This document shows, one piece after another, positions 19,485 through 42,749 of a stretch of 64,000 nt of DNA. This stretch comes from an uncultured Pelagibacteraceae bacterium (lineage in GTDB: Bacteria; Pseudomonadota; Alphaproteobacteria; Pelagibacterales; Pelagibacteraceae). The notes under the pieces are model-generated. The model was not told where the DNA came from. It was given only the letters and a program-made list of their open reading frames with translations, and did no database searches. The stretch lies in NCBI GenBank assembly GCA_902595125.1, contig CACJOY010000005.1, positions 2,433 to 66,432 on the forward strand, given 5' to 3'. The position numbers and the translations under genes were made by a program. How positions within the stretch are numbered: position 1 is the stretch's first letter; the number at the start of each line of letters is the position of its first letter.

Positions 19485-20894
19485 ATGAATAATTCTTATA
19501 AAAATAAAAAATTAAACGCTAATGAGTTAGATTGGAATTTAATCCAGAATGATTTGCGGAATAACTTAGGAAAAGATATTTATGAAAGTTGGCTAAAAAA
19601 AATAAGTTTTGTAGAAGAATTAAATAATTATCTAATATTATCTGTACCAACAAGATTTATAAGGGATTGGATTACTTCTAGGTACTTAGACCAAATTTTA
19701 CAATTAATAAAAAATTATAAGAAGGATTTGATAAGAATAGAATTTAAAATTGATGAAAAAATTGACAACAAAGAAATCAATATTAAGGAATTTAATAAAA
19801 AAGAAAGTGTAGAAAATATTTCTTTTATAAAAGATTCTTATCTTCAGTATAATCGTATAGATCCAAATAAAAGGTTTGACAACTTTATCATTGGATCAAG
19901 TAATAAATTAGCTTATGAAGCTTCTTTAAAAGTTTCAGAAAATATTTCTCATTATAATCCACTTTATATTTATGGAGGTGTGGGAATGGGAAAAACACAT
20001 TTATTAAATTCTATTGGTTTTGAATTGAAAAAAAATAATAAAGTAATGTTTATTTCTGCAGAACGTTTTATGTATCAATTTGTAAAATCAATTAAATCAA
20101 ACGAAATGGTTAAATTTAAAGAGTATTTCAGAAATACAGACGTTTTATTAATTGACGACATACAGTTTATGAACGGAAAAGAAGCAATGCAAGAGGAGTT
20201 TTTTCATACTTTTAATGCATTAATTGATAAAGGATCACAAATAATTCTTTCTGCTGATAGAGCACCAAATAAACTGTCTCGTATTCAAGAAAGAATTAAA
20301 TCTAGATTTTCTGGTGGCCTAGTTGTTGATATTCAGAAACCAGATTATGACTTAAGAAAAAAAATTGTTGAAAAAAAAACTGACGAATTAAGCAGCTTGT
20401 ATCCTGACAAATTAAAAATTTCGAAAGAAATTCAGGATTTTATTAGCACTGAAATCTCAGCAAGCGTTAGAGAGCTCACAGGTGCAATCAATAGGATAGT
20501 TTCTTTTTCTAGAATTTATAATAAAATTCCAAATTTAGCTGAAACAAAAATAGTTCTAAAAGACTTATTAAATCTCTCAGAAAATAAAGTTACAATCGAT
20601 TTAATCCAAACTTTGGTTTGTAAATATTTTAAAATAAGTAAAAATGAAATGCTATCATCACGTAGATCAAGATATTTGGTTAGACCACGACAGACTGCTA
20701 TCTATTTAACTAAAATCTTAACATCAAAATCACTGCCTGAAATTGGAAGAGAATTCTCCAATAGGGATCATACCACAATAATACATTCCGTAAAAACCAT
20801 TGAAAAACTCAAGGAAAATGATTCCTCAATGGTTGATAGTATAAACAAGTTAAAAAATCAGATCTTATATAATAATAAAGAAAATGAAATTTAA
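19485..20894 (+). CDS. dnaA: Chromosomal replication initiator DnaA
   Basis: NPLYIYGGVGMGKTHLL, LLIDDIQF, QEEFFHTFN, RPRQ.AIYL, RDHTTIIH. Confidence 0.99.
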   Translation: MNNSYKNKKLNANELDWNLIQNDLRNNLGKDIYESWLKKISFVEELNNYLILSVPTRFIRDWITSRYLDQILQLIKNYKKDLIRIEFKIDEKIDNKEINIKEFNKKESVENISFIKDSYLQYNRIDPNKRFDNFIIGSSNKLAYEASLKVSENISHYNPLYIYGGVGMGKTHLLNSIGFELKKNNKVMFISAERFMYQFVKSIKSNEMVKFKEYFRNTDVLLIDDIQFMNGKEAMQEEFFHTFNALIDKGSQIILSADRAPNKLSRIQERIKSRFSGGLVVDIQKPDYDLRKKIVEKKTDELSSLYPDKLKISKEIQDFISTEISASVRELTGAINRIVSFSRIYNKIPNLAETKIVLKDLLNLSENKVTIDLIQTLVCKYFKISKNEMLSSRRSRYLVRPRQTAIYLTKILTSKSLPEIGREFSNRDHTTIIHSVKTIEKLKENDSSMVDSINKLKNQILYNNKENEI

Positions 20895-21996
20895 TATTAA
20901 TCAACAAGATTTACAACAAGCATTAAACTATTGTCAGGGCGTAATTGAAAAAAGAAGCACTCTTCCAATATTGTCAAATATATTACTTGATGTTCAAAGC
21001 ACCAAGTTAACTATTACCGCTACTGATTTGGATCTAATTTTTATTCATCAATTAGAAAATATTGAAGTTCTAGAGGAAGGCAAAACTACTACAACTTCAT
21101 CAATTATGTATGATATTATAAGAAAGTTTACCTCAGGTAAAAAAATCAATTTAACTTTGACTGACTCAAGTAAATTACATTTAGAGTCTGAAAAATCAAT
21201 TTTTAATTTAAATTGCATAAATGCTTCAGAATTTCCTTTGACAGATGAAAATTTTAATGAGAACGAATTTTCAATAAAATCAAAACAATTATTAAAATTA
21301 CTTAATAAATGTAAATTTTCTGTTTCAAATGATGAAACAAGACATTATTTAAGTGGGATTTATATTCATCAAACAGAGGTAGAAGATAAAAATTATTTAA
21401 CAGCAGTTGCAACTGATAGTCACAGAATGTCGATCTCAAAGATAAGATTAGATCAAAAGATAAACTTTGATCCAGTCATTTTACCCAAAAAAACTATTTT
21501 TCAACTATCCTCTTTATTAGAGAATTATGATGGAGAAGTTAAAATTTCAAATGTAAAGTCCAAAATAAAATTTGAATTAAATAACAGTATATTAATTTCT
21601 AAATTAATTGATGGAAAATTTCCAAATTATATTCAGGTTATTCCAAAGAACAATCAAAAAAAATTAGAAGTGGGGTTAAAAATTTTTTTAGACTCTGTAG
21701 ATAGAGTTGCTTCTGTATCTTTGGATAAAAAAGATGGAGTTAAATTTAATCTCACAAAAGATACTTTGAATTTATCAGTGAATAATACAAATAGTGGAGA
21801 TGGAAAAGAGACAATAATTGTAAATTTTGAACATGATTTAGAAATTAGCTTCAATTCTAGATATTTAATTGATGTTGCGTCACAAATTGATGGTGAAAAG
21901 ATAGAAATTTTTTTAAATGACACTGGCTCACCTGCTTTAATAAAAGATCCAGGTGATTTTGATAGTATTTATGTAGTAATGCCAATGAAAGGTTAA
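20884..21996 (+). CDS. dnaN: DNA polymerase III beta sliding clamp
   Basis: STLPILSNILL, ATDLD, DETRHYLSG, ATDSHR, LIDGKFPNY, VVMPMK. Confidence 0.98.
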   Translation: MKFNINQQDLQQALNYCQGVIEKRSTLPILSNILLDVQSTKLTITATDLDLIFIHQLENIEVLEEGKTTTTSSIMYDIIRKFTSGKKINLTLTDSSKLHLESEKSIFNLNCINASEFPLTDENFNENEFSIKSKQLLKLLNKCKFSVSNDETRHYLSGIYIHQTEVEDKNYLTAVATDSHRMSISKIRLDQKINFDPVILPKKTIFQLSSLLENYDGEVKISNVKSKIKFELNNSILISKLIDGKFPNYIQVIPKNNQKKLEVGLKIFLDSVDRVASVSLDKKDGVKFNLTKDTLNLSVNNTNSGDGKETIIVNFEHDLEISFNSRYLIDVASQIDGEKIEIFLNDTGSPALIKDPGDFDSIYVVMPMKG

Positions 21997-26917: not shown

Positions 26918-27487
26918 ATGAATAATTTTATTGAACAGGGTCTTTCTTTAGAAAAATGTCCAGCATTAGTTTTGAATGCAGATTATAGACCATTAAGTTA
27001 CTATCCATTATCATTATGGTCATGGCAAGATACTGTCAAATCGGTATTTCTAGATAGAGTTATTATAGTAAGCACCTATGACAGAGTTGTAAGAAGTCCA
27101 TCATTTAATATGGAATTACCAAGTGTTATTGCTTTAAAAGATTATATTGTTCCTCAGTCAAGACCAAGCTTTACAAGATTTAATGTTTTTTTAAGAGATA
27201 AGTTTTCTTGTCAATATTGTGGGAGTGGAGATGAACTAACATTTGATCATTTACTACCTAGGTCCAAAGGTGGAGAAACAAACTGGGATAATGTTGTGAC
27301 AGCTTGCTCCTCTTGCAATGTAAAGAAAGGTGGAAAATTATTGAAATCATCTGGTATGAATCTTACTCAATATCCTTTTCAACCCTCCACAGAAGATTTG
27401 CATCGTAATGGTAAAAATTTTCCCCCAAATTATTTACATAAAAGTTGGATGGATTATTTATATTGGGATGTCGAATTAGAGGCTTAA
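26918..27487 (+). CDS. HNH endonuclease (conserved alphaproteobacterial McrA-like family)
   Basis: LVLNADYRPL, NVFLRD, CQYCG, TFDHLLPRSKGG, NVVTACSSCN. Confidence 0.9.
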   Translation: MNNFIEQGLSLEKCPALVLNADYRPLSYYPLSLWSWQDTVKSVFLDRVIIVSTYDRVVRSPSFNMELPSVIALKDYIVPQSRPSFTRFNVFLRDKFSCQYCGSGDELTFDHLLPRSKGGETNWDNVVTACSSCNVKKGGKLLKSSGMNLTQYPFQPSTEDLHRNGKNFPPNYLHKSWMDYLYWDVELEA

Positions 27488-37603: not shown

Positions 37604-40600
37604 ATGAGTAAAAAATTATTTGTTCCTGACATAGGTGAGTTTGAGAATGTTGAAGTAATTGAACTTTTAGTAAAAGAGGGCCAAGAAATTAAAAAAAACG
37701 ATCCTGTAGTAACAATTGAAAGTGACAAGTCAAGTGTAGAAATTCCATCTTCAATAGAGGGAAAAATAGAAAAAATTGAGGTTAAAGTAGGAGATAAAGT
37801 TTCTAAAGATGATTTGCTTTTGACTATCTCAAATAATGAAATTGTTTCTTCTGAAGTAGAGGACGTTCCAAAAAATACAGAGAATTTAATTCAAGAAGCT
37901 GAAACATCTTTAAAAAAATCCCAAGAACAGCAATTTTCAAAATCTGAAAATGAAATTTCAAGTAAAAAATTTGAAAAAAAAAAAGAAGAACCAAGTAGTT
38001 CTCAAAAAAAAACTACCAAAATTCAATTACTAAATAAAGATGATATTGATCCACAAGAAACAAGCGAATGGCTAGACTCCTTGTCATCAGTCATTGAAAA
38101 GGACGGTAATAAAAGAGCTCATTATTTAATTAAAGAGTTGATCAATAAAGCATATACAGCAGGAGCGAATATTCCATACACACAAAATACCCCATACATA
38201 AACACAATTCCAGTTAGTGAAGAGAAGAAGTCTAATGGAGATCAAAATATTGAGAGAAGAATAAGATCTTTGATAAGGTGGAATTCAGCTGCAATGGTGG
38301 TGAGAGCAAATAAAAAACATCCTGAACTTGGAGGACATATTGGAACATTTGCTTCAGCTGCAACACTTTATGATGTTGGAATGAATCATTTCTGGAGAGC
38401 AAAAAACAATAAGTTTGGAGGAGATTTGATTTATTTTCAAGGTCATAGTGCACCAGGAATGTATGCAAGAGCTTTTCTTGAGGGAAGGATGACTGAAAAA
38501 CAATTAGATAATTTTAGACAGGAAGTAAATCCTGGAGGGCTATCTTCTTATCCACATCCGTGGTTGATGCCAAACTTTTGGCAATTTCCGACAGTATCTA
38601 TGGGATTAGGTCCAATGTTGGCAATTTATCAAGCAAGATTTATGAAATATTTAATAAATAGAGGCTTAATAAAAGACGAGGGAAGAAAAGTTTGGGCATT
38701 TTTAGGAGATGGTGAAATGGACGAACCTGAGTCCTTAGGTGCGATTGGTTTAGCTGCAAGAGAAAAATTAGACAATTTAATATTTGTCATAAACTGTAAT
38801 TTACAGAGACTAGATGGCCCAGTTAGAGGTAATGGAAAAATAATTCAAGAACTAGAGGGAATTTTTAGGGGTGCAGGGTGGAATGTTATTAAAGTTATTT
38901 GGGGATCTTATTGGGACTCTTTACTACTCAATGATAGCACAGGACATTTAGTTAAAACTATGAACGAAACAGTTGATGGCGAATATCAGGCAATGAAAGC
39001 CAGAGATGGTGCCTATGTGAGGGAAAAGTTTTTTGGAAAATATCCAGAAACAAGAGAATTGGTATCAAGTCTATCTGATAAAGATATTTGGAGATTAAAC
39101 AGAGGTGGTCATGATCCTCATAAAGTCTTTGCTGCTTACGATAAGGCATCAAAAAATGTCGGCAGTCCTACTGTAATAATTGCAAAAACTATCAAAGGAT
39201 ATGGAATGGGAAAAAGTGGTGAAAGTGTAAATACAACACACCAAACTAAAAAATTAGATATTGAAGATTTAATGTATTACAGAGACAGATTTGATGTACC
39301 ACTTACAGATGAACAAGTGAGAAATATTGAATATTATAAACCTGATCAAAATTCAGCTGAGATAAAATATATTAAAGAGAGAAGGCTTCAACTTGGTGGG
39401 TTTATTCCTGAGAGAACCACCTACGCAAAACCTATTAAAACCCCTCCTAAAAATATTTTTGATAATATGAAAGAGTCTACTGGCAAAAAGGAAATGTCAA
39501 CAACAATGGCTTTAGTCAGAATGTTAACAAACCTTCTTAGAGATAAAAATGTTGCACCAAGACTTGTTCCAATTATTCCTGATGAAGCAAGAACTTTTGG
39601 TATGGAGGGATTTTTTCAAAAAGTTGGGATTTACGCCCATGAGGGACAGAAATATGAACCAGAAGACTCTGCTCAATTAAGTTCTTATAGAGAAGAAAAA
39701 AGTGGTCAAGTTCTGGAAGAAGGTATAACAGAAGCAGGTGCTATGTCGTCATGGATTGCTGCTGGAACGTCATACACTAATCATGATATTGAAATGATCC
39801 CAATTTACTTATTTTATTCAATGTTTGGTTTCCAAAGGATAGGAGATTTTGCATGGGCAGGTGCTGACAGTCAATCACGTGGTTTTTTAATTGGAGCGAC
39901 TGCTGGAAGAACTACTCTCGCGGGTGAAGGATTACAACATCAAGACGGCCATAGCCATTTATTAGCTTCAACAATTCCAAATTGTATTTCTTATGATCCA
40001 ACTTTTCATTACGAGTTAGCTGTAATTTTTAGAGAGGGATTGAGAAGAATGCATGAAAAAAAGGAAAATATTTTTTATTATATTACAACAATGAATGAAA
40101 AATATCCTCATCCTGAAATTCCTAAAGATAAAAAATATGAAGAAGGAATTTTAAAAGGCATGTATAAAATTAAAGAATTTAATAATCATAAAAAAACAAA
40201 GTTACAATTTCTTGGATCTGGTTCAATTTTAAGGGAAATGATATCTGGAGCAGAAATATTGCAAAAGGAATACAAAATAGACAGTGAGATTTGGAGTGTG
40301 ACCAGTTTTAATGAACTTAGAAAAGATGGATTAGAAATTCAAAGATATAATCTTCTTAACCCCAACAAAGAACAAAAAAAATCATATGTTGAAAAATGTC
40401 TTGGCGGAACTGAAGGTCCAATATTAGCAGCATCAGACTATATGAGAATGAACTCAGATCAAATTCATCCTTATATAAATAAAAGTTTTTATTCTTTAGG
40501 AACTGATGGATTTGGAAGAAGCGATACAAGAAAAAATTTAAGAAAATTTTTTGAGGTTGATAAAGAGCATATAGTTGCGTATGGACTAAGCGTTTTAGCA

Positions 40601-40690
40601 AAAGAGCAACTTTTAGCTTCAAAGTATGCTACTGAGGCTATGAAAAAATATAAAATCGATAGTGAAAAACCAATGCCAACTAAAATGTAA
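37604..40690 (+). CDS. aceE: Pyruvate dehydrogenase E1 (homodimeric AceE type) with N-terminal lipoyl domain
   Basis: N-terminus VPDIGEFENVEV...IESDKSSVEIPS (lipoyl-Lys motif), charged linker, then DIDPQET.EW, GGHIGTFAS, PTVSMGLGP, GDGEMDEPES, GEGLQHQD. Confidence 0.96.
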   Translation: MSKKLFVPDIGEFENVEVIELLVKEGQEIKKNDPVVTIESDKSSVEIPSSIEGKIEKIEVKVGDKVSKDDLLLTISNNEIVSSEVEDVPKNTENLIQEAETSLKKSQEQQFSKSENEISSKKFEKKKEEPSSSQKKTTKIQLLNKDDIDPQETSEWLDSLSSVIEKDGNKRAHYLIKELINKAYTAGANIPYTQNTPYINTIPVSEEKKSNGDQNIERRIRSLIRWNSAAMVVRANKKHPELGGHIGTFASAATLYDVGMNHFWRAKNNKFGGDLIYFQGHSAPGMYARAFLEGRMTEKQLDNFRQEVNPGGLSSYPHPWLMPNFWQFPTVSMGLGPMLAIYQARFMKYLINRGLIKDEGRKVWAFLGDGEMDEPESLGAIGLAAREKLDNLIFVINCNLQRLDGPVRGNGKIIQELEGIFRGAGWNVIKVIWGSYWDSLLLNDSTGHLVKTMNETVDGEYQAMKARDGAYVREKFFGKYPETRELVSSLSDKDIWRLNRGGHDPHKVFAAYDKASKNVGSPTVIIAKTIKGYGMGKSGESVNTTHQTKKLDIEDLMYYRDRFDVPLTDEQVRNIEYYKPDQNSAEIKYIKERRLQLGGFIPERTTYAKPIKTPPKNIFDNMKESTGKKEMSTTMALVRMLTNLLRDKNVAPRLVPIIPDEARTFGMEGFFQKVGIYAHEGQKYEPEDSAQLSSYREEKSGQVLEEGITEAGAMSSWIAAGTSYTNHDIEMIPIYLFYSMFGFQRIGDFAWAGADSQSRGFLIGATAGRTTLAGEGLQHQDGHSHLLASTIPNCISYDPTFHYELAVIFREGLRRMHEKKENIFYYITTMNEKYPHPEIPKDKKYEEGILKGMYKIKEFNNHKKTKLQFLGSGSILREMISGAEILQKEYKIDSEIWSVTSFNELRKDGLEIQRYNLLNPNKEQKKSYVEKCLGGTEGPILAASDYMRMNSDQIHPYINKSFYSLGTDGFGRSDTRKNLRKFFEVDKEHIVAYGLSVLAKEQLLASKYATEAMKKYKIDSEKPMPTKM

Positions 40691-40691
40691 C

Positions 40692-41621
40692 ATGACTTTA
40701 GATGATAATACTTTTCTGATGCCTGCATCACCTAAGGTAAGGAAATTTGCTAGAGAATTGGGTGTTGATATAAATGAAGTTGCGGGTAGTGAAAGGTTAG
40801 GAAGAGTAACGGAAAAAGATATTAAATTATTTGTTTCAAAAAAAAACAATCAAAAAGATAGCACTAAAACAAAAGACGATAGCAACATTATTCTCGAATA
40901 TTCTCATTCTGAATTTGGAAATATAGAAATAAAAGAAATTCCACGAGTAAAAAAAATTTCATCAAAATATTTAATCAATTCATGGCGCAATATTCCTCAT
41001 GTAACAAATCATGACGAGGCTGATATTACAGAAATGGAAGAATTTAGAAATTCTCTTACAGATATTTATACAGGTGAAAAAATGAAAATTACCCCTTTAG
41101 CATTTATAGTTAAAGCTTTGACCTTATCTCTTAAGAAATTTCCAAATTTTAATAGTTCAATAGATGAAATAGATAAAGGAAAAATAACATTAAAGAAATA
41201 CTTTCATATCGGAATAGCAGTAGATACAGAAAATGGATTAATGGTTCCAAAACTTAGAAATGCTGATAATAAAAAAATTTCTACAATTAGTAATGAGTTA
41301 AAGGAATTGAGTGAAAAATGTAGAAAACTTAAGATTGATAAAAAAGAATTATTTGGAGGCTCAATGACTATAACAAGTCTGGGAGGTATTGGGGGCTCAT
41401 TTTTCACACCAATCATAAATTTTCCTGAGGTCGCAATTTTAGGAGTAGGCCGATCACAAAAAAAACAAATATTTAAAGATGGAAAATTTGTTTCAAGGAT
41501 AATTCTACCGTTATCTCTTTCATATGATCATAGGATAATAGATGGAGCTGAGGCAGCCAGATTTAATAATGATTTGAAAGAAAATTTAGGTAAAAATTTT
41601 GCTTATAAATTAGCTTTATAA
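40692..41621 (+). CDS. aceF: Dihydrolipoamide acetyltransferase E2 lacking a lipoyl domain
   Basis: Begins at the subunit-binding domain (ASPKVRKFARELGVD...GRVT..D); catalytic domain IPHVT, PIINFPEVAILG, SYDHRIIDGA. Start at ATG 40692. Confidence 0.93.
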   Translation: MTLDDNTFLMPASPKVRKFARELGVDINEVAGSERLGRVTEKDIKLFVSKKNNQKDSTKTKDDSNIILEYSHSEFGNIEIKEIPRVKKISSKYLINSWRNIPHVTNHDEADITEMEEFRNSLTDIYTGEKMKITPLAFIVKALTLSLKKFPNFNSSIDEIDKGKITLKKYFHIGIAVDTENGLMVPKLRNADNKKISTISNELKELSEKCRKLKIDKKELFGGSMTITSLGGIGGSFFTPIINFPEVAILGVGRSQKKQIFKDGKFVSRIILPLSLSYDHRIIDGAEAARFNNDLKENLGKNFAYKLAL

Positions 41622-41651
41622 ATTTTGTTAATTAATTAGAATTAACCAAAA

Positions 41652-42749
41652 ATGATAGAAAATATAAAAATTTTACAAAAAGAATTGAATGTAAAGTTCA
41701 GTGATAAAATTCAAGATAATTTTCCATTTATATGGTTAAGAGATCATGCAAAAGATGAGTTAAATTGGGACGAAAGATCAAATCAAAGAAAAACTTTTAC
41801 AGCACAAATAGATTCAAATTTGCAGATTAAGGAAGCATTTATTTTAGATGGTGGTAAATCACTCAGTATATTATGGTCAGATTTAAATTCAGCTATTAAT
41901 TATTCACACGATTTTTTGAAAAAAAATATATTGAATAAAAAAACAAATACATCAAATTTTCAATTGTGGAAGATCGAAGATATAAATGAAAAAATTTTTA
42001 TTGACTACAAGTCAGCTTTATCAAATAAAGGTTTTAAGATTTTTTTAAAAAATTTATATGATTATGGTTTTTGTGTAATTAAAGATTGTCAAAAAGAAAT
42101 AAATACTGTTGAAAAAATCGCAAAAAAAATTGGTTACGTTAGACAATCAATTTTTGGAGGACTATGGAGTTTTGAGTCTAATGAAAATATGGCAGACAGC
42201 GCTTATACTTCAGAAGAATTAAGACCTCATACTGATGCAACATATAGTAATGATGCGCCAGGTCTTCAATTACTTTTATGCTGTCACTATAATGCTCAAG
42301 GAGGAGAGTCCATTATGGTTGATGGATTTAAAATTGCAGATGTTATCAAAAAGCAAGATAAAGATTTATTTGATATTCTATCAACTGTAGAGGTACCAGG
42401 GAATTATGTAGGTGATGGTGTATTTTTAGAGTCTCAAAGACCAATTTTCAAACTTGATAAAGACAAAGAAATTGTACAAGTAAGTTTTAATAATTATGAT
42501 AGAGCAGCATTTAGGTTAGAAAATGATTTAATGATAAAATTTTATGAGGCGATTAAAAAATTTGATCTGATGGCTAATCATGAGGATTTTCAATGGAGAC
42601 ATATATTAAAACCAGGAGAACTACTAATTTTTAATAATTGGAGAATTTTACATGGCAGAAAAGCTTTTAAAGGATCAAGAAAAATGTCAGGCTGTTATAT
42701 TAATAAAGAGGATTTCGACAGTGTGTGTAAAATCAATAATATAATTTAA
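41652..42749 (+). CDS. Trimethyllysine dioxygenase / gamma-butyrobetaine hydroxylase-like TauD-family enzyme
   Basis: N-terminal WLRDH domain, AYT...LRPHTDATY, PGLQLL.C, DGF, FNNWRILHGRKAF..R...GCY. Confidence 0.85.
   Translation: MIENIKILQKELNVKFSDKIQDNFPFIWLRDHAKDELNWDERSNQRKTFTAQIDSNLQIKEAFILDGGKSLSILWSDLNSAINYSHDFLKKNILNKKTNTSNFQLWKIEDINEKIFIDYKSALSNKGFKIFLKNLYDYGFCVIKDCQKEINTVEKIAKKIGYVRQSIFGGLWSFESNENMADSAYTSEELRPHTDATYSNDAPGLQLLLCCHYNAQGGESIMVDGFKIADVIKKQDKDLFDILSTVEVPGNYVGDGVFLESQRPIFKLDKDKEIVQVSFNNYDRAAFRLENDLMIKFYEAIKKFDLMANHEDFQWRHILKPGELLIFNNWRILHGRKAFKGSRKMSGCYINKEDFDSVCKINNII

What the first reader, a model, noticed from the sequence alone, without database searches (positions are those of the whole stretch)
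37604..41621. Domain-swapped pyruvate dehydrogenase: lipoyl arm on E1, none on E2
Seen: AceE begins with a full lipoyl domain (ESDKSSVEIPS) and a charged linker, while AceF begins directly at the E1/E3-binding domain. No lpd gene is adjacent. Known: in canonical complexes lipoyl domains are on E2, and most Alphaproteobacteria use the heterotetrameric PdhA/PdhB E1 rather than homodimeric AceE. Inference: a horizontally derived AceE/AceF pair whose swinging arm was relocated, which changes lipoyl stoichiometry and coupling at the key carbon entry point of a pyruvate-dependent organism.
Basis: partly seen in the sequence, partly recalled or inferred. Interest (0 to 1): 0.65.

Follow-up and report, generated by a model that had tools for sequence, protein, structure and literature searches.

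The report
SAR11 pyruvate dehydrogenase: lipoyl arm on E1
In this SAR11 (Pelagibacter) genome the lipoyl "swinging arm" of pyruvate dehydrogenase sits on the E1 enzyme and is missing from E2, a real and selected arrangement that arose in two steps: all relatives examined copied the arm onto E1, and one sub-lineage later deleted it from E2.

Summary
AceE (37604-40690) is one 1028-residue reading frame. It holds a lipoyl domain (residues 1-76, lipoyl-lysine K42), a roughly 70-residue linker, and a complete E. coli-type E1p. AceF (40692-41621) starts one base after the aceE stop and has only a subunit-binding domain and a catalytic domain.

It is not a misassembly. Error-free contigs from three independent metagenome studies span both junctions.

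All 78 Pelagibacteraceae loci with a complete aceE carry the lipoyl-AceE fusion. AceF keeps its own paralogous lipoyl domain in 62 of 73 rows. Only one AceF lineage has lost it, by a single inferred deletion. That lineage includes this window, part of subclade Ia.4, and more than 110 metagenome protein clusters.

The aceF alleles with and without the domain move between lineages by recombination. Both the E1-borne domain and the domain-less E2 are under purifying selection (dN/dS about 0.08).

Best reading (0.7): the E1-borne arm is the only pyruvate-dehydrogenase arm here. It reaches the E2 core because E1's N-terminal helices bind E2's subunit-binding domain.

I rate it a new variant of a known kind.

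The parts
37604..40690 (+). aceE: a single ORF encoding lipoyl domain, linker and homodimeric-type pyruvate dehydrogenase E1p (1028 aa)
   Evidence: TIGR00759 scores 1426 bits. Residues 146-1025 align to E. coli E1p residues 6-883 (PDB 1l8a, 1115 bits).
37604..37831 (+). N-terminal lipoyl domain (residues 1-76); lipoyl-lysine K42 at 37727-37729 in the motif TIESDKSSVEIPS
   Evidence: PF00364 E 3.5e-18. The best structural relatives by sequence are the E. coli E2p lipoyl domains (7b9k, 107 bits). AF2 predicts a beta-barrel with pLDDT 71-89. The ESDKS motif is present in 73 of 73 rows and dN/dS is 0.076.
37832..38038 (+). Linker (residues 77-145), rich in K/E/S/Q and variable in length
   Evidence: AF2 pLDDT is below 50 over 79-96 and 109-138. 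The linker is 68-82 aa in the AceE clade that holds all rows lacking the AceF lipoyl domain, against 57-60 aa in the other rows.
37865..37918 (+). Conserved element within the linker (V88-K105, VPKNTENLIQEAETSLKK); function unknown
   Evidence: Present in 71 of 73 rows. Its columns are at least 95% conserved among 62 distinct linkers. It overlaps a low-confidence predicted helix at 91-114.
38039..38173 (+). Canonical E1p N-terminal helices (residues 146-190), the segment that binds the E2 subunit-binding domain in E. coli
   Evidence: Aligns to E. coli E1p residues 6-50 and to the 49-residue E1 peptide chain 9h1n_C. AF2 predicts helices 150-185 with pLDDT about 80. The role in E. coli is taken from PMC10849603.
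40692..41621 (+). aceF: E2p without a lipoyl domain (309 aa), starting 1 nt after the aceE stop
   Evidence: Residues 6-296 align to E. coli E2p residues 323-619 (7b9k, 238 bits). TIGR01348 scores 329 bits against a cut-off of 552 because the lipoyl part is missing.
40722..40823 (+). [quoted passage not shown]
   Evidence: PF02817 E 2.9e-12.
40932..41588 (+). AceF acetyltransferase catalytic/core domain with the DHRIIDGA active-site motif
   Evidence: PF00198 E 7e-77. The alignment to E. coli E2p is. dN/dS is 0.084 among the alleles lacking the lipoyl domain.
40186..41651 (+). Recombination tract relative to the closest genome (L001): the aceE 3' end plus all of aceF
   Evidence: DNA identity between the window and L001 is 0.90-0.96 in the flanks and 0.71-0.84 (mostly 0.71-0.80) here. 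L001 has a 334-bp insertion that encodes an AceF lipoyl domain.

Best explanation
This is the aceE-aceF operon of a SAR11 (Pelagibacteraceae) bacterium, encoding a pyruvate dehydrogenase complex of the E. coli (AceE/AceF) type whose lipoyl arm has been moved. Step 1 happened before the sampled Pelagibacteraceae diverged: a lipoyl domain paralogous to that of AceF was fused, through a 57-82-residue linker, to the N-terminus of AceE. Step 2 happened in one AceF lineage that includes this genome and part of subclade Ia.4: AceF lost its own lipoyl domain and most of the adjoining linker by an in-frame deletion, leaving only the subunit-binding and catalytic domains.

Proposed mechanism (inferred, not shown). 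E1 dimers dock on the AceF subunit-binding domain through their conserved N-terminal helices, as in E. coli. The lipoyl domain hangs from those helices on its linker, so it is tethered to the E2 core non-covalently. It is reductively acetylated at an E1 active site, delivers the acetyl group to the AceF catalytic domain, and is re-oxidised by an E3 encoded elsewhere. The number of arms is then set by E1 occupancy, two per E1 dimer, rather than by E2 copy number.

Shown here: the domain architecture, its conservation, purifying selection, an inferred single loss, and allele exchange. Inferred: lipoylation, that the E1-borne arm serves E2 and E3, and that it is the only arm used.
For: Architecture.

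The fusion is present in 78 of 78 complete aceE ORFs among 80 loci, and in all 120 best protein clusters.

AceF has its own lipoyl domain in 62 rows and lacks it in 11.

On the AceF tree the rows without the domain form one side of a branch (support 96/93), so one change suffices.

The E1 and E2 lipoyl domains split 100/100 by position. Identity is 85% among E1 domains, 79% among E2 domains and 61% between the two sets, so they are old paralogs.

The N-terminus of the domain-less AceF (MT[ED]N.T...SASPKV) lines up with the end of the lipoyl-to-PSBD linker of the domain-bearing alleles (TDQNKVFNISSASPKV), as expected for a deletion.

Purifying selection: dN/dS is 0.076 for the E1 lipoyl domain (0.10 within the rows that lack the AceF domain) and 0.084 for the domain-less AceF catalytic domain, with dS about 1, so the state is old and maintained.

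Domain-less AceF proteins of 303-331 aa make up more than 110 of the 120 best clusters, from ENA, JGI, Tara and NCBI. Tara and JGI contigs show the same pair of genes in the same synteny.

Both junctions are confirmed in independent metagenomes.

The E1 N-terminal segment that binds the PSBD in E. coli (PMC10849603) is retained directly after the linker.

The linker is 8-22 residues longer in the AceE clade where the AceF domain was lost.
Against: There is no biochemical evidence here: lipoylation of K42, transfer from the E1-borne arm to E2 and E3, and complex assembly are all untested.

The rest of the genome could not be searched. SucB, GcvH or a second E2p with lipoyl domains could also serve AceF.

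dN/dS of the domain-less AceF catalytic domain is about twice that of the domain-bearing alleles (0.084 against 0.043), which could mean mildly relaxed constraint.

No RNA run holding the stretch could be listed.

In Zymomonas-type complexes the E1-borne lipoyl domain coexists with one on E2, and its role is not settled (my own knowledge), so an E1-borne domain is not proven to be a full substitute.
Confidence: 0.7

Rival explanations
1. The domain-less AceF borrows lipoyl domains from another lipoylated protein of the cell, such as SucB of the 2-oxoglutarate dehydrogenase complex, much as actinobacterial OdhA uses the lipoyl domains of AceF. The E1-borne domain is then auxiliary or regulatory and is not the acyl carrier for E2.
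For: Sharing of lipoyl domains between complexes is established in Corynebacterium (PMC7568260 and PMC10415282, listed). An earlier unverified scan note (e1-4496719) describes another domain-less E2 that was proposed to borrow arms. The rest of this genome was not searchable.
Against: E1p enzymes recognise their cognate lipoyl domains specifically (my own knowledge). A cognate AceF-type lipoyl domain under purifying selection sits on the very E1 that docks on this E2. The loss from AceF is seen only in loci whose AceE already carries the arm.
Confidence: 0.12
2. A second, canonical E2p with lipoyl domains is encoded elsewhere in the genome and forms the real core. The domain-less AceF is then a redundant or specialised paralog.
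Against: SAR11 genomes are about 1.2-1.3 Mb and streamlined (my own knowledge; genome sizes in the supplement of PMC7318151). In every locus the only aceF sits directly behind aceE in conserved synteny. No second lipoyl motif occurs in the 64-kb window. The domain-less AceF is under purifying selection.
Confidence: 0.05
3. Loss of the AceF lipoyl domain is mildly deleterious or neutral decay. Pyruvate dehydrogenase activity in this lineage is reduced or dispensable, and the arrangement has no adaptive or mechanistic meaning.
For: dN/dS of the domain-less AceF catalytic domain is higher than that of the domain-bearing alleles (0.084 against 0.043). Two genomes of the clade (L001, L008) carry re-imported domain-bearing alleles.
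Against: dN/dS of 0.08 is still strong purifying selection. dS of about 1 among the domain-less alleles shows long persistence. More than 110 intact diverged clusters exist in the oceans. The catalytic motif is intact. Pyruvate is a key carbon source for SAR11 (my own knowledge).
Confidence: 0.08
4. An assembly or gene-calling artefact created the fusion or removed the AceF lipoyl domain.
For: The two lipoyl domains are paralogous repeats that could in principle confuse assemblers.
Against: Error-free contigs from three studies span both junctions. The same state occurs in 10 independent single-cell or metagenome-assembled genomes and in Tara/JGI contigs. A collapse between the two repeats would delete aceE itself, not only the AceF domain.
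Confidence: 0.01

Closest known systems
E. coli / Azotobacter-type pyruvate dehydrogenase complex (homodimeric AceE; AceF with 1-3 lipoyl domains, PSBD and catalytic domain; cubic 24-mer core)
   Same: The E1p core aligns end to end with E. coli E1p (residues 6-883), including the N-terminal PSBD-binding segment. AceF's PSBD and catalytic domain align with E. coli E2p residues 323-619, with DHRxxDG intact. The lipoyl domain is of the E2p type.
   Different: The lipoyl domain is on E1 and not on E2. AceF corresponds to the engineered PSBD-plus-catalytic-domain construct lacking lipoyl domains used in PMC10849603. No lpd gene is adjacent.
Alphaproteobacterial / Zymomonas mobilis complex with a lipoyl domain on E1-beta (PdhB; NCBIfam NF008854; Neveling et al. 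1998, cited from my own knowledge)
   Same: An N-terminal lipoyl domain is borne by an E1 subunit. The PdhB model NF008854 gives a weak match to residues 15-139, covering the lipoyl domain and linker.
   Different: There E1 is the heterotetrameric alpha2-beta2 type and E2 keeps its lipoyl domain. Here E1 is the homodimeric AceE type, and in this lineage E2 has none.
E3 (Lpd) with an N-terminal lipoyl domain (Neisseria and Ralstonia type; PDB 5u25)
   Same: A lipoyl domain is relocated or duplicated onto a peripheral subunit. Chain 5u25_A residues 14-85 match this lipoyl domain.
   Different: The carrier there is E3 and E2 keeps its lipoyl domains.
Actinobacterial OdhA/KGD-AceF hybrid complex
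   Same: It is a natural 2-oxoacid dehydrogenase in which the catalytic acyltransferase part has no lipoyl domain of its own and depends on an arm carried by another polypeptide (PMC10415282, PMC7568260).
   Different: There the E2o catalytic domain is fused to E1o and borrows arms from the E2p of another complex. Here E2 remains a separate core protein and the arm is fused to its own E1.
SAR11 alleles with lipoyl domains on both AceE and AceF (for example L001, L014, and the HIMB2226 locus L075)
   Same: Same operon, same synteny and the same lipoyl-AceE fusion.
   Different: AceF retains a roughly 75-residue lipoyl domain and linker (414-446 aa against 303-309 aa), and the AceE linker is mostly 57-60 aa instead of 68-79 aa.

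Membership tests
Homodimeric pyruvate dehydrogenase E1 (AceE, TIGR00759) | Full-length match above the curated equivalog cut-off | tested here: met
   1426 bits against a cut-off of 859.9, residues 145-1026 matching model positions 3-883 of 885.
Homodimeric pyruvate dehydrogenase E1 (AceE, TIGR00759) | ThDP-binding GDG...NCN motif and end-to-end collinearity with a solved E1p | tested here: met
   GDGEMDEPES...NCNLQRLDGP aligns with E. coli 1l8a; residues 146-1025 match 6-883.
Homodimeric pyruvate dehydrogenase E1 (AceE, TIGR00759) | Pyruvate decarboxylation and reductive acetylation activity | not testable with these tools
   Needs an enzyme assay.
Lipoyl domain (PF00364, E2p type) | Domain match above the gathering score, with the lysine in a DK[AS] hairpin motif rather than the biotinyl MKM motif | tested here: met
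   65.7 bits against 22.1. The motif is ESDK42SS. The best matches are E. coli E2p lipoyl domains. AF2 predicts a beta-barrel with pLDDT 71-89.
Lipoyl domain (PF00364, E2p type) | Covalent lipoylation of the lysine | not testable with these tools
   Needs an anti-lipoate blot or mass spectrometry.
Canonical E2p (AceF, TIGR01348 PDHac_trf_long) | One or more N-terminal lipoyl domains | tested here: not met
   There is no PF00364 match. The ORF starts 1 nt after the aceE stop. TIGR01348 scores 329 bits against a cut-off of 552.
Canonical E2p (AceF, TIGR01348 PDHac_trf_long) | PSBD plus acyltransferase catalytic domain with DHRxxDG | tested here: met
   PF02817 E 2.9e-12; PF00198 E 7e-77; DHRIIDGA present; aligned to 7b9k residues 323-619.
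Lipoyl-E1-beta (PdhB, NF008854) of alpha2-beta2-type complexes | Heterotetrameric E1-beta body behind the lipoyl domain | tested here: not met
   22 bits against a cut-off of 454, and only the lipoyl domain and linker match. The body is AceE.
Actinobacterial OdhA-type E1-E2 fusion | E2 catalytic domain fused to E1 | tested here: not met
   There is no PF00198 match on AceE. AceF is a separate ORF.

The most novel reading that the evidence does not exclude
In a widespread SAR11 lineage (part of subclade Ia.4) the pyruvate dehydrogenase complex works with a swinging arm that is not covalently part of the E2 core. Each arm is anchored only through E1's N-terminal helices bound to the E2 subunit-binding domain, so arm number follows E1 occupancy. 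The strictly conserved 18-residue helix in the linker (VPKxTENLIxEAExxLxK) is a new docking element that positions the arm. Because aceF alleles with and without the lipoyl domain are exchanged by recombination, the E1-borne arm alone would be sufficient for function in nature.
Probability: 0.45. Interest if true: 0.72.

Novelty: new variant of a known kind. Interest (0 to 1): 0.6.

Why it matters
Textbook 2-oxoacid dehydrogenase complexes place the lipoyl arm on the E2 core. Natural exceptions add arms to E1-beta or E3, or let an arm-less module borrow arms from another complex. This case would be a complete natural transfer of the arm to a homodimeric E1.

It occurs in the ocean's most abundant heterotroph, at the step where pyruvate enters central metabolism. 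It comes with ready-made natural controls, namely sister alleles that still have the E2 arm.

It offers a direct test of three questions. Must the arm be covalently attached to the core? How does arm number limit flux? How does E1 recognise its lipoyl domain, given that a tethered E1-lipoyl-domain pair may be easier to trap structurally?

It also illustrates genome streamlining by removal of a redundant domain, and recombination of functional alleles among SAR11 lineages.

Tried and rejected

2. Misassembly: rejected.

3. Fusion outside SAR11 among the nearest AceE relatives: the 150 best 50%-identity representatives were inspected, and ten long or N-terminally extended ones were scanned with Pfam. 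None has a lipoyl domain. Earlier scan notes report an independent fusion in marine group II archaea; I did not verify this.

4. Conserved linker element as a remnant of a PSBD: hhalign probability 0.07%. As a copy of E1's N-terminal helices: probability 0.33%. Both ideas rejected.

5. Riboswitch or other RNA element upstream of aceE: Rfam finds only two tRNAs in the window. Promoter-like sites are at chance level and no terminator lies between aceE and the downstream genes.

6. Expression: no RNA run holding the stretch could be listed.

7. Literature: no paper in the library links SAR11/Pelagibacter with lipoyl domains on E1.

8. Taxon names for the nearest non-SAR11 representatives: the listing of cluster members gave almost none. 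A search with P0121 showed that its relatives are named Betaproteobacteria.

9. Several independent losses of the AceF lipoyl domain were suggested by the AceE tree (2-3 changes). I rejected this in favour of one loss plus recombination, from the AceF tree and the recombination tract.


Full report
OBSERVATION. The ORF at 37604-40690 (+) encodes 1028 residues. Residues 5-75 match Pfam Biotin_lipoyl (E 3.5e-18). Residues 145-1026 match the NCBIfam aceE equivalog TIGR00759 (1426 bits, cut-off 860). The motif TIESDK42SSVEIPS is of the lipoyl type (DK[AS]), not the biotinyl type (MKM), and it is the only such motif in the 64-kb window. Against solved structures, residues 146-1025 align end to end with E. 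coli E1p residues 6-883. The N-terminal domain matches all three lipoyl domains of E. coli E2p (7b9k, 107 bits). The aceE stop (TAA, 40688-40690) is followed one base later by the ATG of aceF at 40692. AceF (309 aa) has only an E3_binding/PSBD domain and the 2-oxoacid_dh catalytic domain, with DHRIIDGA intact. It aligns with E. coli E2p residues 323-619. No Lpd-type disulfide motif occurs in the window. The flanking genes are a thiolase and a TauD/GBBH-type dioxygenase.

NOT AN ARTEFACT. Contigs from public marine metagenomes of three different studies lie on the stretch without a single difference across both critical junctions. These are the lipoyl-domain-to-linker-to-E1 stretch (37633-38257) and the aceE-stop-to-aceF-start junction (40549-40892, 40588-40743, 40559-40745). 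The best holder may be the sample of origin, but the other runs are independent of it. The same gene pair in the same synteny occurs in ten independent single-cell or metagenome-assembled genomes and in Tara and JGI contigs.

WHAT RELATIVES SHOW: TWO STEPS, NOT ONE SWAP. A scan of species-representative genomes with the first 199 residues found 281 relatives. The 80 best are all Pelagibacteraceae/Pelagibacterales. All 78 loci with a complete aceE have the lipoyl domain in frame with E1, and so do all 120 best protein clusters. In most loci, however, 340-380 bp lie between the aceE stop and the PSBD of aceF, and these bases encode a second lipoyl domain at the N-terminus of AceF. Of 73 scorable rows, 62 have it (AceF of 414-446 aa) and 11, including the window, lack it (309 aa).

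The two sets of lipoyl domains separate by position with 100/100 support. Identity is 85% among E1 domains, 79% among E2 domains and 61% between the sets. They are therefore old paralogs without recent gene conversion. On the AceF tree the rows lacking the domain form one side of a branch (96/93), so a single change is enough. Lipoyl-bearing E2 is the near-universal state elsewhere, and the N-terminus of the short AceF lines up with the end of the lipoyl-to-PSBD linker of the long alleles. That change is therefore a deletion.

On the AceE tree the short-AceF rows share a 13-row clade with two long-AceF genomes, L001 and L008. The AceF of those two nests deep inside other long-AceF groups. Against L001, its closest relative, the window is 90-96% identical in DNA on both sides but only 71-84% identical (mostly 71-80%) from 40186 to 41651. 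This is a recombination tract that replaces aceF. Alleles with and without the E2 arm thus circulate and are exchanged among lineages.

Short AceF proteins (303-331 aa, PF02817 plus PF00198 only) make up more than 110 of the 120 best clusters in the 5.8-billion-protein collection, some seen on up to 74 contigs. A 303-aa variant sits behind a 1024-aa lipoyl-AceE in Tara and JGI contigs. Members of the short-AceF group (SAG-MED37, AG-345-O09, AG-325-E08) are classified as SAR11 subclade Ia.4, two of them as genomospecies I, in the supplement of PMC7318151. Other Ia.4 genomes keep the long AceF.

SELECTION. dN/dS is 0.076 for the E1-borne lipoyl domain (0.10 within the short-AceF group) and 0.015 for the E1 core. 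For the AceF catalytic domain it is 0.084 in the short alleles and 0.043 in the long alleles. dS is about 1 among the short alleles. Both the E1 arm and the arm-less E2 are maintained by selection, and the state is old. The constraint on the short AceF is slightly weaker.

ANATOMY AND LIKELY MECHANISM. An AlphaFold2 model (mean pLDDT 74) gives a beta-barrel for residues 1-78 (pLDDT 71-89) and a low-confidence linker. It also gives confident helices at 150-185. [quoted passage not shown] The arm is thus attached exactly at the point where E1 holds on to E2. The chain lipoyl domain, linker, [E1 helices bound to PSBD], linker, catalytic core reproduces the canonical order of domains, but with one covalent link replaced by a protein-protein contact.

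I infer the following cycle. The arm is acetylated at an E1 active site, unloads at the AceF catalytic domain, and is re-oxidised by an E3 encoded elsewhere. If the E. coli stoichiometry of 16 E1 dimers to 24 E2 to 8 E3 dimers (PMC10849603) applied, there would be about 32 arms per core here. That compares with about 56 in SAR11 carrying both arms and 72 in E. coli.

Two further observations fit a working arm. The linker is 68-82 residues in the AceE clade where AceF lost its arm, against 57-60 elsewhere. An 18-residue element, VPKxTENLIxEAExxLxK, is nearly invariant inside an otherwise variable linker. Its function is unknown. It is neither PSBD-like nor a copy of the E1 N-terminal helices.

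COMPARISON WITH WHAT IS KNOWN. Lipoyl domains on peripheral subunits are known. One case is E1-beta of Zymomonas and many Alphaproteobacteria (NCBIfam NF008854 matches the lipoyl and linker part weakly; the literature is cited from my own knowledge). Another is E3 of Neisseria-type complexes (PDB 5u25 matches). In both cases E2 keeps its own arm. Arm-less acyltransferase modules are known in actinobacterial OdhA, which borrows arms from AceF. The present case combines a homodimeric AceE-type E1 that carries the arm with an E2 that has none.

Among the 150 nearest 50%-identity AceE representatives, none outside the SAR11 group showed a lipoyl domain. The nearest representative is 53% identical and its relatives are named Betaproteobacteria. 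Earlier notes of this scan report the same lipoyl-AceE fusion in other genomes and, independently, in marine group II archaea. First-reader notes also report 303-aa arm-less E2s behind lipoyl-E1. I verified only the SAR11 part. Full-text searches found no paper that describes the SAR11 arrangement. The domain architecture is nevertheless visible in precomputed Pfam annotation.

LIMITS. I therefore could not list the genome's other lipoyl proteins, its E3 or its lipoate-attachment enzymes, and could not exclude a second E2p. No RNA run could be listed. The horizontal origin of the AceE/AceF pair was not tested with a rooted tree.

VERDICT. The most likely explanation (0.7) is a functional pyruvate dehydrogenase whose only dedicated swinging arm is carried by E1. 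It arose by duplication of the arm onto E1 before the sampled Pelagibacteraceae diverged, followed by deletion of the arm from E2 in one lineage. I rate it a new variant of a known kind, with interest 0.6.

Noticed in passing
window 37865-37918 (AceE residues 88-105): A nearly invariant 18-residue element, VPKxTENLIxEAExxLxK, lies inside the otherwise variable lipoyl-to-E1 linker. It is present in 71 of 73 loci and overlaps a low-confidence predicted helix. It is not PSBD-like and not a copy of the E1 N-terminal helices. Its function is unknown.
   Followed up: partly
window 40186-41651, compared with L001 8580-10380: A recombination tract covers aceF. The closest genome, L001, is 90-96% identical in the flanks but 71-84% identical here, and it carries an aceF allele with a lipoyl domain. 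L008 shows the same pattern on the trees.
   Followed up: yes
window 41652-42749: A TauD-family dioxygenase with a GBBH-like N-terminal domain sits directly behind aceF. Among the 80 loci it is present only in L001, L003 and L005; elsewhere aceF is followed at once by the EamA transporter gene. It is therefore a variable insertion in the operon's tail.
   Followed up: partly
window 19485-21996: dnaA and dnaN lie about 16-18 kb upstream of aceE, so the operon is close to the likely replication origin.
   Followed up: no
window 26918-27487: A free-standing HNH endonuclease ORF (189 aa) lies between a carboxylesterase gene and small ORFs on the opposite strand.
   Followed up: no
protein P0276 (JGI metagenome, 486 aa): An AceF with a lipoyl domain and an exact internal tandem duplication of about 67 residues at the start of the catalytic domain (KNEFEHSDFGEIEIKDIPRVKK...TGEKIK, twice). 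It is probably an assembly repeat artefact or a rare variant.
   Followed up: no
L025 6001-9093 (AceE linker): A seven-residue tandem duplication, NIQVVNN/NIQVVNK, sits in the linker just before the E1 N-terminus. It shows that the linker changes length by small duplications.
   Followed up: no
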